Source: Promethearchaeota archaeon (GTDB taxonomy: Archaea > Asgardarchaeota > Lokiarchaeia > Sigyniarchaeales > SOKP01). Taken from it: a DNA stretch of 64,000 nt. The notes under the pieces are model-generated. The model searched no databases, was not told where the DNA came from, and worked only from the letters and a program-made list of their open reading frames with translations. The stretch spans positions 320,001-384,000 of the forward strand of contig JBHLOY010000002.1 of assembly GCA_048939995.1 (NCBI GenBank), in the 5' to 3' direction. Position 1 is the stretch's first letter, and each line of letters starts with the position of its first letter. Position numbers and translations under genes: made by a program. Positions 55,224 to 58,428 of the stretch are shown here, piece by piece.

Positions 55224-55705
55224 TTAGAGCCACATGCTAATTATGAGGATTTTTGGAAAGAATACGTAAACGATCTTAAAAAGAGATACTATAAAGTCAT
55301 TTTGCAACAAAAAAAAGATGTAAATAATTATATTATTTATATCGATAAGGAACAATATCTCCAGGCTCTTAAAGATAAGATAAAGAAATTAAAAGCAAAA
55401 GGAGATAAAACCAATCTAAGAAATTACGGTTGGCTTATCTTAGGGGTGCTTATGATGCAGATGGATTTAGTAATCGTACAAGCCTTAGTAGTTTTAGTAG
55501 AGAATACTTAAAACAAATTAGAGATATTTTCAACATTCCATATCCAGTTCGTCTACATAAAGAAAGGTATAGCTATCTCGATACAAATGGAAATCTACAT
55601 GTTCGGAAGTCACATTGGGTCTTAACCCTCGGTGTTAATTTGTTTAAGGAGATGACTAATTTATGTTCTGATTATGGTTTGGATTTAAAAAGGAAAAATA
55701 AGTAG
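55224..55705 (+). pseudogene. LAGLIDADG homing endonuclease remnant
   Basis: LAYLRGAYDADG motif; frameshift near 55430 relative to the upstream frame ...KTNLRNYG; no start codon (TAA just before 55224). Confidence 0.7.
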
Positions 55706-55843: not shown

Positions 55844-56518
55844 ATGAAAAAATCTAAATTAAAAATTCTAATTCCATTAACATTAGGAATCTTGTTCCTT
55901 AGCCTTACCTCAACCGTTAATGTTGTGGCTGATCCTTCAACAGTAACTTTTAGACCATTAAGTCATTGGATACTTAATAATCCCAGAGTGTCCTATGGTT
56001 GGGGAGGCCAACCCCCAACAGGTGATCTGCCTTTATATATCTTAATGTTGAGTTATCCCTGGGCTATACCTGATCCCAATACATATGATGGCTACATAAT
56101 GGAAAGAACGTTGAAAGACGGAAGAGCAGAACTTACTGTTTACATAGAATTCTTCAATGCCCCCTTTTGGCTTTTTGGATTTTTACCGGATATTGGGTTA
56201 TTCCCCCTTGTTCTACAACAAGGTTCTATGATTAATTGTAGGGAAACCACCAAATTTACTCTTCCTGAACCCGGCATGGTAATCCCAAACTTATTTGAAA
56301 TATTATATAATTTTGATTTAATTATGATTTCAATAGAGGGAACGGGTGCTGGGATTTTTACGACGGAGGCTTCTATAATAGGATTTACACCTGGGGCTCA
56401 ATGTAAGGTAGTTGTTAACCAACGTGGCTTTGGGTGGATGGACGTTTTACCTCTACCTCCACCCTTGGAGAATTATATGCCTATAGAACTAATAAACGTT
56501 CTTGAAATTGGGGATTAA
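55844..56518 (+). CDS. secreted hypothetical protein lying between the two direct repeats
   Basis: Signal peptide MKKSKLKILIPLTLGILFLSLTSTVNVVA; GGTGA RBS; T-run after the stop. Confidence 0.8.
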   Translation: MKKSKLKILIPLTLGILFLSLTSTVNVVADPSTVTFRPLSHWILNNPRVSYGWGGQPPTGDLPLYILMLSYPWAIPDPNTYDGYIMERTLKDGRAELTVYIEFFNAPFWLFGFLPDIGLFPLVLQQGSMINCRETTKFTLPEPGMVIPNLFEILYNFDLIMISIEGTGAGIFTTEASIIGFTPGAQCKVVVNQRGFGWMDVLPLPPPLENYMPIELINVLEIGD

Positions 56519-56573: not shown

Positions 56574-56704
56574 TTGGGTGTTATCTTTCAGTGTTGATTT
56601 TTTTAAGGAACTACCTAATTTATCTTCTAATTATGGTTTGGGTTTAAAAGCAAAAATAAATAGATTTAATAAAAAGTTAGTTTCCAGTAAATATTTTCTC
56701 TTTT
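56574..56704. repeat. diverged direct repeat, copy 2: endonuclease C-terminal scrap plus the true fwdA 3' end
   Basis: Plus strand WVLSFSVDFFKELPNLSSNYGLGLK; minus strand KEKIFTGN*. Confidence 0.85.
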
Positions 56705-58428
56705 GGGGCGTAGGCATCTTGGACAGCATAATTGTTAAAGTTGATGCTATAATGATCCCTCCAGCTATGGCGCACATCATCTAACATCTCCTCCATGAGG
56801 CTCTCCTTAAGCTTACCTTCTGCTCGAAGTAAATTCCCCATCGGTGATGCTGTAATCTCTCCGTCTTTCACCACAATTATTCCATCCTTAATTGTATATG
56901 CCGTCGAGCTAAATGCCTTCTCAATATCATGCCCAGTATAATTGTTAGGATCAATCTTATACACTGCCACGTCTCCAATAGCGCCCACACCGAGATGACC
57001 GCGATCTTTCATTCCCAGAATCTTCGAAGTTCCAGCGCGGGTTACCACAGCCAGTTCATAAAGCGAATATTCCCTGTCGATGTCTGCCAACGTAGACGCC
57101 GTGCTTGCTTTCTTATGGACCACATTTTTGAGCATGTCATCTCGAGTTTTCCTATCCATCAACCATTTGAAGGCCATCGGATACGTGGTAAACGGGGCTC
57201 CATTTGGATGGTCGGTCGTAAATCCGATTTGAAAAGGATCCTTTACCAAAAGCATAAGCTCAAGACCAATTGCCCATTGAACCGCATTTACGCTATTTTT
57301 TGCATCAAAAAAATACGGAACTATCCCTGATCCTGATTCTGCTTCAACTTGGCCGTTAACCCACTTAATACCCGGCTTAGATCCCCAACCTGAAAAACCA
57401 CCTAAATGATGGAGAGCAAACTCTCATGCACAGACAAGATGCTCGTCTGTGACCCATGGTCCGTCTCCAGTCATCGTAGTGGTCGCATATTTAGTGAATA
57501 CTACTTGACCGTTATCAATCGTAAGATGCTTATGTGAATTCACATACTCAGCAATTTCTACGGCACCAGAAGTAAAGTCATTCCAATTAGTGCCTCCATA
57601 TGCATTAAATTGACAATGAGTCACATGAAGACTTGTTGTTCGGCTATCACCAGCCTTGATTTTCTCACAGACTTGAAAGGTTTCGAGAGAATGCTTGAAA
57701 TTGCCGGGATGTCCGAGATTGTTGCAATGGACATGAATTGAATGTGGTAATTTCAGAATCTCGTTAACCTTCGCTAGACTCTCAATAATCTGACGAGGAG
57801 TTACATTCCAATGGAAAACAGGATCATTTAAAGATTCACAATTCTTGCCCCAAGCCCAATTTTCAACCCCCCCAGGATTTACAATTTTTATAGCATAGCC
57901 TTTGGTTGCTTGGAGGATCCAATTGACGTATGCGGCGAGCTTATCGATGTCGTTGTCGCGTATATATTTCAGGACGAACCAATTATTTCCATAGATGGGG
58001 AGGGCAGCTTTATCGATGATTGGCATTTCGAGGAATTCTTCATGGGTATGTCGAGCTTCGAGGAGAGGCATTGCGGGTTCGACAGCGGTTGTATAGCCCA
58101 TTTGGGCATATTTATAACCTGTATACCAAGTGCTAAGCACGCTGAACCCGGTACCGGATCGTGTAGTTTTAGTTTTCTTTAGGTTCGATTCGGGCACCTT
58201 GTCTTCAGGTCGTAAAGCTCGTCCGACATTGACTTTAGGTCCAGCAATGTGAGTGTGCATATCAACTCCACCAGGCATTACGACCATTCCAGAAGCATCG
58301 ATTACTTTTGCGTCAGAGTTAACTTTTTCGGCGATAAGTCCATCTTTTATATAGATATCTTTCTTTTCGCCATCGATCTTATTGAGCGGGTCATATACCA
58401 ATCCATTTTTAATGATTAAGTTGCTCAT
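56677..58428 (-). CDS. fwdA: formylmethanofuran dehydrogenase subunit A, intron-interrupted; join(57453..58428, 56677..57422), 573 aa spliced
   Basis: PGGVDMHTHIAG, KIVNPGG, HVHCNNLG, TTMTGDGPW|EFALH, ESGSGIVPY, QWAIGLEL, TTDHPNGAPF. Both ORF-track pieces are in the same frame. Confidence 0.93.
57423..57452 (-). other. 30-nt bulge-helix-bulge mRNA intron in fwdA
   Basis: Exon helix, CAUG/CAUG 4-bp central helix, 3-nt bulges GGU and AGA, 10-bp intron hairpin; contains the in-frame UGA; excision restores the frame. Confidence 0.88.

What the first reader, a model, noticed from the sequence alone, without database searches (positions are those of the whole stretch)
57406..57474. Canonical bulge-helix-bulge intron in the mRNA of fwdA
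Seen: fwdA is broken only by a 30-nt in-frame insertion (VTDEHLVCA*) between the conserved GDGPW and EFALH. The mRNA reads AUGA-C-UGGAGA-CGGAC [CAUG] GG^U CACAGACGAG-CAU-CUUGUCUGUG [CAUG] AG^A GUUUG-C-UCUCCA-UCAU. This gives an exon-exon helix of about 15 bp, a 4-bp CAUG/CAUG central helix, two 3-nt bulges and a 10-bp intron hairpin. Known: the archaeal splicing endonuclease EndA cuts after the second nucleotide of each bulge and RtcB ligates. Applying that rule removes exactly 57452-57423 and gives CCA UGG G|AG UUU (P-W-E-F), a 573-aa FwdA. BHB introns are typical of tRNA and rRNA; the well-documented protein-gene case is crenarchaeal cbf5. Inference: this is a spliced mRNA for a core C1-pathway enzyme in a probable Asgard archaeon. 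The intronic UGA makes expression depend on splicing, since the unspliced product stops at 334 aa and lacks the TTDHPNG region. Annotation pipelines would call the gene a pseudogene, so other such introns may be hidden.
Basis: partly seen in the sequence, partly recalled or inferred. Interest (0 to 1): 0.96.

Follow-up and report, generated by a model that had tools for sequence, protein, structure and literature searches.

The report
tRNA-type mini-intron splitting Asgard fwdA
The only canonical gene for a core one-carbon enzyme subunit (FwdA) in this Asgard archaeon is broken by a 30-base insert that is very probably an intron cut out of the messenger RNA by the tRNA-splicing enzymes, and a decayed selfish DNA-cutting gene beside it suggests how such introns spread.

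Summary
Observation confirmed; interpretation supported by comparison, splicing not observed. Removing window 57452-57423 gives a 573-aa FwdA, and the bulge-helix-bulge (BHB) is the minimum-energy fold. Fourteen diverged fwdA alleles carry a 30-33-nt insert at this codon. All nine hairpin pairs show two-sided changes, and one central exon-intron pair flips A-U/U-A. In 8 of 10 alleles tested only the EndA register restores the conserved Glu. The exon-exon stem is stronger in every intron allele than in 29 intronless ones. Exon 2 is under purifying selection; EndA (two subunits) and RtcB are present. No RNA run was listed. Added here: the intron is patchy on the tree, and a decayed LAGLIDADG endonuclease lies behind the gene. 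Five fwdA-linked copies form one clade, and this family sits beside BHB mRNA introns at several other genes. Its probable target is a second fwdA intron site (WAWG), which would make this intron a passenger. The scan noted this intron type, and this fwdA intron, before on other DNA. The papers found give only cbf5 and a Haloferax 5' UTR.

The parts
57423..57452 (-). 30-nt BHB intron (10-bp hairpin 57451-57429, central-helix strand CAUG 57428-57425, in-frame UGA 57426-57424)
57453..58428 (-). fwdA exon 1 (codons 1-325 plus the G of Glu326); its last bases give the exon strand of the central helix (57458-57455) and the first bulge
56677..57422 (-). fwdA exon 2, with TTDHPNG (Asp396); under purifying selection
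57459..57475 (-). 5' arm of the exon-exon stem (codons of M-T-G-D-G-P)
57405..57421 (-). 3' arm of the exon-exon stem (codons of E-F-A-L-H-H)
55230..55705 (+). decayed (frameshifted, truncated) LAGLIDADG homing-endonuclease gene of the fwdA-linked clade; second motif at about 55430-55465
56575..56673 (+). second scrap of an endonuclease C-terminus abutting the fwdA stop codon, the slot where intact copies sit in G010, G018 and G062
57844..57858 (-). W-A-W-G-K site (codons 191-195): intronless here, but a second intron site in relatives and the likelier target of the endonuclease

Best explanation
The insert is a real ORF-less BHB intron in a protein-coding message. Shown in sequence: the pre-mRNA can fold into a canonical BHB, and cutting after the second base of each bulge and joining gives the conserved P-W-E-F. 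Inferred from archaeal tRNA and cbf5 splicing: the two-subunit EndA cuts, RtcB ligates, and full-length FwdA is made only from spliced mRNA; unspliced mRNA stops at the intron's UGA. About 0.93 for this part. Inferred, about 0.55: the intron's scattered distribution comes from gene conversion driven by a free-standing LAGLIDADG endonuclease specific to fwdA, plus precise losses. The enzyme more likely cuts the upstream W-A-W-G-K site, so this intron, lying between that site and a downstream endonuclease gene, is carried along. In this genome the endonuclease has decayed and the intron is left as a fixed, splicing-dependent passenger.
For: 14 diverged alleles have a 30-nt (one 33-nt) insert at the same codon. 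92% of cells pair, 12 pairs have two-sided changes, and 0/500 shuffles reach the covariation score while slid controls fall to 28-45% paired. The central pair is A-U in 5, U-A in 6 and U.U in 2; an exon-exon pair flips G-C/C-G with a Gly/Ala change. Only the BHB register gives W-E in 8 of 10 alleles. The exon stem is -11.5 to -17.2 kcal/mol in intron alleles and -2.8 to -11.4 in 29 intronless ones. Exon 2 of two intron alleles differs at 108 synonymous and 25 replacement codons. EndA alpha and beta, RtcB, FwdB and FwdC are present, and the one paralogue has Asn for Asp396. Spread: 9 changes for 10 alleles on a 143-row tree; five fwdA-linked endonucleases form one clade, 98/97; introns lie within about 1 kb of this endonuclease family at 8/21 discovery and 3/20 replication loci, against 0 credible in 197 control gene segments.
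Against: No spliced RNA or peptide was seen, and no full-length protein identical to a spliced allele was among the cluster members listed. Two alleles have a U.U mismatch in the central helix, and in 6 of 14 the BHB is 0.1-3.5 kcal/mol above the minimum-energy fold. Kin are not independent, so p-values overstate. For the homing part: four intron-bearing loci with enough flank have no endonuclease beside fwdA (G029, G063, L033, L034); five of eight introns in this genome other than fwdA and EF-1alpha's neighbours have no copy of this family nearby (six in all); no target site was tested.
Confidence: 0.9

Rival explanations
1. Spliced intron, and true collaborative homing at this very site: the endonuclease cuts the intronless D-G-P-W-E-F sequence and this intron is what protects the host allele.
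For: Three of the four downstream endonuclease carriers (G000, G010, G062) have this intron, and the fourth (G018) has the rare W-E-Y variant. The G000 remnant groups with G062's enzyme although their fwdA genes are distant.
Against: G109 has an intact member of the clade with a plain GDGPWEF site. All four intact carriers have an altered W-A-W-G site: inserts in G010 and G109, WAWSR in G018, WSWG in G062.
Confidence: 0.25
2. Spliced intron that is old in this family and was lost many times; the endonuclease next door is incidental to it.
For: All alleles share position, length and a CA(U/A)GA end. Precise loss is plausible in L072, the intronless sister of this genome, and repeated loss is described for cbf5 (PMC2738675).
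Against: Only 6 of 161 genomes of the class carry it. One intron type is 83-100% identical between lineages whose fourfold sites are near saturation (rough alignment). Endonuclease and introns are associated across genes.
Confidence: 0.35
3. No splicing: the UGA is read through (selenocysteine or leaky stop), or the ribosome bypasses the hairpin, giving a longer or a bypassed FwdA.
For: The insert is a multiple of three and the stop here is UGA.
Against: Five alleles use UAA, and the stop sits two codons earlier in the CAAG type. The ten residues are not conserved, read-through would replace the conserved Glu by Lys, Arg or Thr in most alleles, and none of 120 homologues has the insert as protein. 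Bypassing does not explain conserved 3-4-3 bulge geometry.
Confidence: 0.03
4. Pseudogene, split gene or assembly artefact.
For: No RNA evidence was obtained here; gene callers do call two pieces.
Against: The same insert occurs in 14 alleles from separate assemblies, with compensatory changes. Exon 2 is under purifying selection, and the 80 codons after the insert, which the second called ORF omits, are conserved. No other canonical fwdA is in the genome while fwdB and fwdC are intact.
Confidence: 0.03

Closest known systems
cbf5 pre-mRNA BHB intron of Crenarchaeota (Yokobori 2009, PMC2738675; Watanabe 2002 as cited there)
   Same: Short ORF-less intron inside a conserved coding motif, cut between the second and third base of each bulge by a hetero-oligomeric EndA; patchy, with losses.
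   Different: Other phylum and gene (a metabolic enzyme, not an RNA-modifying one); mostly canonical rather than relaxed motif; long selected exon-exon stem; one of at least eight such introns in the genome; cbf5 splicing is shown by cDNA, this one is not.
BHB intron in the 5' UTR of Haloferax HVO_1309 (PMC7714728)
   Same: EndA substrate in an mRNA.
   Different: Non-coding; does not break a reading frame.
BHB introns of Asgard tRNA genes (bioRxiv 10.64898/2026.10.13.758758)
   Same: Same motif and lineage group, repeated gains, two-subunit EndA.
   Different: tRNA only (the text has no occurrence of 'mRNA'); it found no general route of arrival and no enrichment of mobile elements, by a test it calls able to detect only strong association.
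Collaborative homing: F-CphI and the psbA group I intron of cyanophage S-PM2 (PMC6083498, citing Zeng 2009)
   Same: Free-standing endonuclease gene next to an intron-bearing conserved gene; patchy distribution.
   Different: Here a LAGLIDADG enzyme, a protein-spliced mini-intron and a cellular chromosome; target not mapped, and probably another site of the same gene.
LAGLIDADG-encoding BHB introns of archaeal rRNA (I-DmoI type)
   Same: Same enzyme family and same splicing motif.
   Different: The endonuclease lies outside the intron, and the host is an mRNA.

Membership tests
Archaeal BHB intron | 4-bp central helix flanked by two 3-nt bulges on opposite strands | tested here: met
Archaeal BHB intron | flanking exon-exon and intron helices | tested here: met
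   16-bp and 10-bp helices with covariation
Archaeal BHB intron | cuts after the second base of each bulge restore the product | tested here: met
   only that register gives W-E in 8 of 10 alleles
Archaeal BHB intron | EndA and RtcB encoded | tested here: met
   PF01974 twice (one with the Tyr-His-Lys residues), PF01139 once
Archaeal BHB intron | spliced RNA or excised intron observed | not testable with these tools
Group I or group II self-splicing intron | catalytic RNA core of well over 100 nt | tested here: not met
   30 nt; no Rfam match at E <= 1
Selenocysteine or stop read-through | conserved UGA at a conserved residue, with conserved flanking protein | tested here: not met
   UAA in five alleles, shifted position, insert residues not conserved
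FwdA (formylmethanofuran dehydrogenase subunit A) | full-length match and metal-site residues (HxH, Lys, His, His, Asp) | tested here: met
   the 97%-identical P0129 matches 5t5i_A at 1e-201; motifs present in the spliced product
LAGLIDADG homing endonuclease (intact relatives of the remnant) | two LAGLIDADG helices with acidic residues and the fold | tested here: met
   PF14528 in 15 of 18; profile hits I-HjeMI, I-AniI, I-DmoI; model pLDDT 88.7 matches LAGLIDADG structures. The window's own copy is broken
Collaborative homing | free-standing endonuclease gene tied to the intron-bearing gene | tested here: met
   five fwdA-linked copies form one clade; family-wide enrichment
Collaborative homing | enzyme cuts the intronless insertion site of this intron, and the intron blocks it | tested here: inconclusive
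   sequence variants point more to the W-A-W-G site; cleavage not testable here

The most novel reading that the evidence does not exclude
In this Asgard family, protein-spliced mini-introns in essential coding genes are created or spread by a family of free-standing, site-specific LAGLIDADG endonucleases: each enzyme clade is tied to one host gene (fwdA, EF-1alpha, eIF2-gamma, a GH38 mannosidase, an aldolase, phosphofructokinase and others), and a 30-nt BHB intron at or near its target protects the host or rides along. That would be a DNA-level route of mRNA intron gain in the closest prokaryotic relatives of eukaryotes.
Probability: 0.5. Interest if true: 0.92.

Novelty: new variant of a known kind. 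Interest (0 to 1): 0.82.

Why it matters
The papers I could search report one archaeal coding sequence spliced by EndA (cbf5) and one 5' UTR. Here a core one-carbon enzyme appears to depend on it, with at least seven more cases in the same genome, so some Asgard genes annotated as split or pseudogenes are intact and metabolic reconstructions can be wrong. Selection for the RNA stem reaches into the coding sequence. The link to gene-specific free-standing homing endonucleases gives a testable answer to how tiny ORF-less archaeal introns spread, which a 2026 preprint on Asgard tRNA introns leaves open.

Tried and rejected
RNA evidence: no RNA holder was listed for the locus, which is no evidence either way; read laying was not used because it needs run ids from that tool. 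No full-length protein identical to a spliced allele was among the listed cluster members (only 15 of 33 members of the window's cluster are shown). A purely de novo BHB plus open-frame scan has about 1% background and shows little enrichment until helices are long, so a homology-based, motif-free method was used instead. No donor for the intron was found in this genome or, for the CAAG type, in three genomes that carry it; the likeness of the spliced loop CUUGGGA to a tRNA-Pro anticodon loop stayed untested (the search printed nothing). Separate exon 1 and exon 2 trees gave no clear conversion tract. A sister relation of the EF-1alpha and eIF2-gamma endonucleases (86) did not hold and is not claimed. 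The 265-299-aa ORF behind fwdA in L034 is not LAGLIDADG. Searches were input slips.

Full report
1. Observation. fwdA lies on the minus strand at 58428-56677 with one in-frame TGA. Deleting 57452-57423 yields 573 aa with DGPW-EFALHH; the unspliced frame ends at 334 aa, upstream of TTDHPNG at 394. The minimum-energy fold is a canonical BHB (-33.5 kcal/mol, z -3.7, 0/200 shuffles) and was the most stable of the three candidates left by a strict genome-wide scan. A Logan contig matches the locus at 100% over 2375 nt. Homologue names place the organism in Promethearchaeota.

2. Conservation. Among 30 loci from relatives, two (G010, G029) had a 30-nt insert at the same codon and 27 read WE(F/Y/H)AL directly. 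Seven homologues of 332-337 aa all ended just after DGPW, and their contigs held the insert. Pattern scans, which do not select for a stop, added more. In all there are 14 distinct alleles, 13 of 30 nt and one of 33 nt. All 14 hold an in-frame stop. In the six alleles whose central strand is CAAG the original UGA is gone and another stop (UAA in five, UGA in one) sits two codons earlier. In the class, 6 of 161 genomes searched carry it, in two genera of one family (the seventh match is not an insert).

3. Structure under selection. On an ungapped alignment of 13 alleles, 92% of cells pair; all nine hairpin pairs show two-sided changes; no shuffle of 500 reaches the covariation score, and slid controls collapse. 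The third base of the Pro codon (exon) covaries with its intron partner: A-U 5, U-A 6, U.U 2, plus G-U in the 33-nt allele. An exon-exon pair flips with the protein: Gly with Leu CTC, Ala with Leu CTG. All 10 alleles first tested allow the five exon pairs next to the bulge, against 4 of 27 intronless alleles. The whole exon stem folds at -11.5 to -17.2 kcal/mol in intron alleles and -2.8 to -11.4 in 29 intronless ones, without overlap. Most relatives read K, R or T after the stop; in 8 of 10 only the cut after the second bulge base rebuilds the Glu codon, a residue also present in the methanogen enzyme. Kin are not independent, so these counts are not probabilities.

4. The gene is alive and the machinery is there. 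Exon 2 differs between this genome and G010, both intron-bearing, at 108 synonymous and 25 replacement codons. FwdB and FwdC are intact; the only paralogue is 28% identical and has Asn for Asp396. Two EndA paralogues, one with the catalytic Tyr-His-Lys, and RtcB are encoded, fitting the two-subunit type reported for most Asgard genomes (bioRxiv 10.64898/2026.10.13.758758). Mechanism: fold and register are shown in sequence; cutting by EndA and ligation by RtcB are inferred from tRNA and cbf5 splicing (PMC2738675, PMC7714728). No RNA was examined.

5. Other introns in this genome. A motif-free comparison with 1.5 Mb of an intron-poor relative covered 621 genes and found two BHB introns, fwdA and metG, each at the unique best register. 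Targeted checks added CaiB, EF-1alpha, dnaG, mevalonate kinase, a gene on C23 and one on C17; dnaG and mevalonate kinase have weak outer helices. So at least eight, probably below about 1% of genes; introns near the start codon are under-counted.

6. How it may spread. The intron is scattered on the FwdA tree: 9 changes for 10 alleles among 143, at least 6 forced by well-supported branches. One intron type is 83-100% identical between lineages whose fourfold sites are only 20-60% identical (rough), which fits recent transfer or strong constraint. Intact homologues lie directly behind fwdA in G010 (606 aa), G018 (529 aa) and G062 (over 1000 aa), and upstream of fwdA in G109 (1205 aa). They are two-motif LAGLIDADG proteins by profile and fold. 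These five form one clade, 98/97, among 24 family members, and this genome's remnant groups with G062 rather than with its close relative G010. The only other copy of the family in this genome lies about 250 nt upstream of the EF-1alpha intron. Across relatives, each enzyme clade keeps one genomic slot, and a BHB intron lay within about 1 kb at 8 of 21 discovery loci and 3 of 20 loci fetched afterwards, against none credible in 197 control gene segments from the same contigs (Fisher p 0.0045 for the replication set alone, overstated by kinship). Hosts include a GH38 mannosidase (six genomes), eIF2-gamma, an aldolase and phosphofructokinase (named from their motifs).

7. Which site is the target. 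fwdA has a second intron site at W-A-W-G-K (codons 194-195): an in-frame 30-nt insert in G010 and a 31-nt one in G109. All four intact enzyme carriers are altered there (two inserts, WAWSR, WSWG; 114 of 156 homologues have the plain form), while G109 keeps a plain GDGPWEF. This genome, with a dead enzyme, has the plain W-A-W-G-K. The simplest reading is that the enzyme cuts that site and that the intron studied here, between cut and enzyme gene, is co-converted. Against generality: four intron-bearing fwdA loci and six of this genome's eight introns have no copy of this family nearby. This part is inference, about 0.55.

8. Comparison and verdict. It meets every sequence criterion of an archaeal BHB intron; the RNA criterion could not be tested. 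It works like the cbf5 intron but in another phylum and gene. Seven literature searches found no report of spliced Asgard mRNAs or of endonuclease-linked mRNA introns in archaea (open-access library only). This scan has noted the class on much other DNA (496 notes in at least 97 genomes), this same fwdA intron in another genome (e1-5505671), and endonuclease-intron cassettes at kae1, hutU and metK; I did not check those. Verdict: a real intron with about 0.9 confidence, a new variant of a known kind, interest 0.82.

Noticed in passing
G000 C11:167345-167313 (-); L153: 33-nt BHB intron in the P-loop of EF-1alpha, with a broken LAGLIDADG gene about 250 nt upstream; the same pair is in G029 (L177).
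   Followed up: yes
G000 C6:82172-82203 (+), C38:64707-64737 (+), C11:487250-487217 (-), C28:379867-379897 (+), C23:175447-175418 (-), C17:23476-23508 (+): Further 30-34-nt BHB-type introns in metG, a CaiB CoA-transferase, dnaG, mevalonate kinase and two genes I did not name.
   Followed up: partly
L144:3580-3609 (G010) and L240 (G109): Second fwdA intron site at W-A-W-G-K. The G010 insert is in frame and has no stop, so G010 fwdA holds two introns.
   Followed up: yes
L164:5694-5723, L165:4411-4440, L166:5078-5107, L183:5402-5431, L238, L239: 30-nt BHB intron in the THWDRE-W motif of a GH38-type mannosidase, in six genomes each with a LAGLIDADG gene a few hundred bases upstream; intronless and without the enzyme in this genome.
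   Followed up: partly
L173:5724-5752, L175:2745-2717: 29-nt intron in the P-loop of eIF2-gamma next to a LAGLIDADG gene.
   Followed up: partly
L185:3755-3726, L186:5334-5303, L197:4741-4772, L178:3443-3413, L179:3723-3755, L189:2081-2110: More endonuclease-adjacent introns: an aldolase, phosphofructokinase (GGDC motif), two unnamed genes and, 2 kb away, a zinc dehydrogenase. L181 may hold up to four introns in one gene.
   Followed up: partly
L034:3049-4533: Behind an intron-bearing fwdA lie an unknown 265-299-aa ORF and an 81%-identical duplicate of the last 457 nt region of fwdA, which looks like the scar of a cassette insertion.
   Followed up: partly
G000 C6:43131-46471: Second fwdB beside a divergent fwdA-like paralogue (28%) that has Asn in place of the catalytic Asp.
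   Followed up: no
window 55844-56518 (+): 224-aa signal-peptide ORF of higher GC (about 0.4), with at least five paralogues in the genome, lying between the two endonuclease remnants.
   Followed up: no
whole genome: ARAGORN finds only 20 tRNA genes in a 98%-complete genome, several poorly modelled, consistent with heavily interrupted tRNA genes.
   Followed up: no
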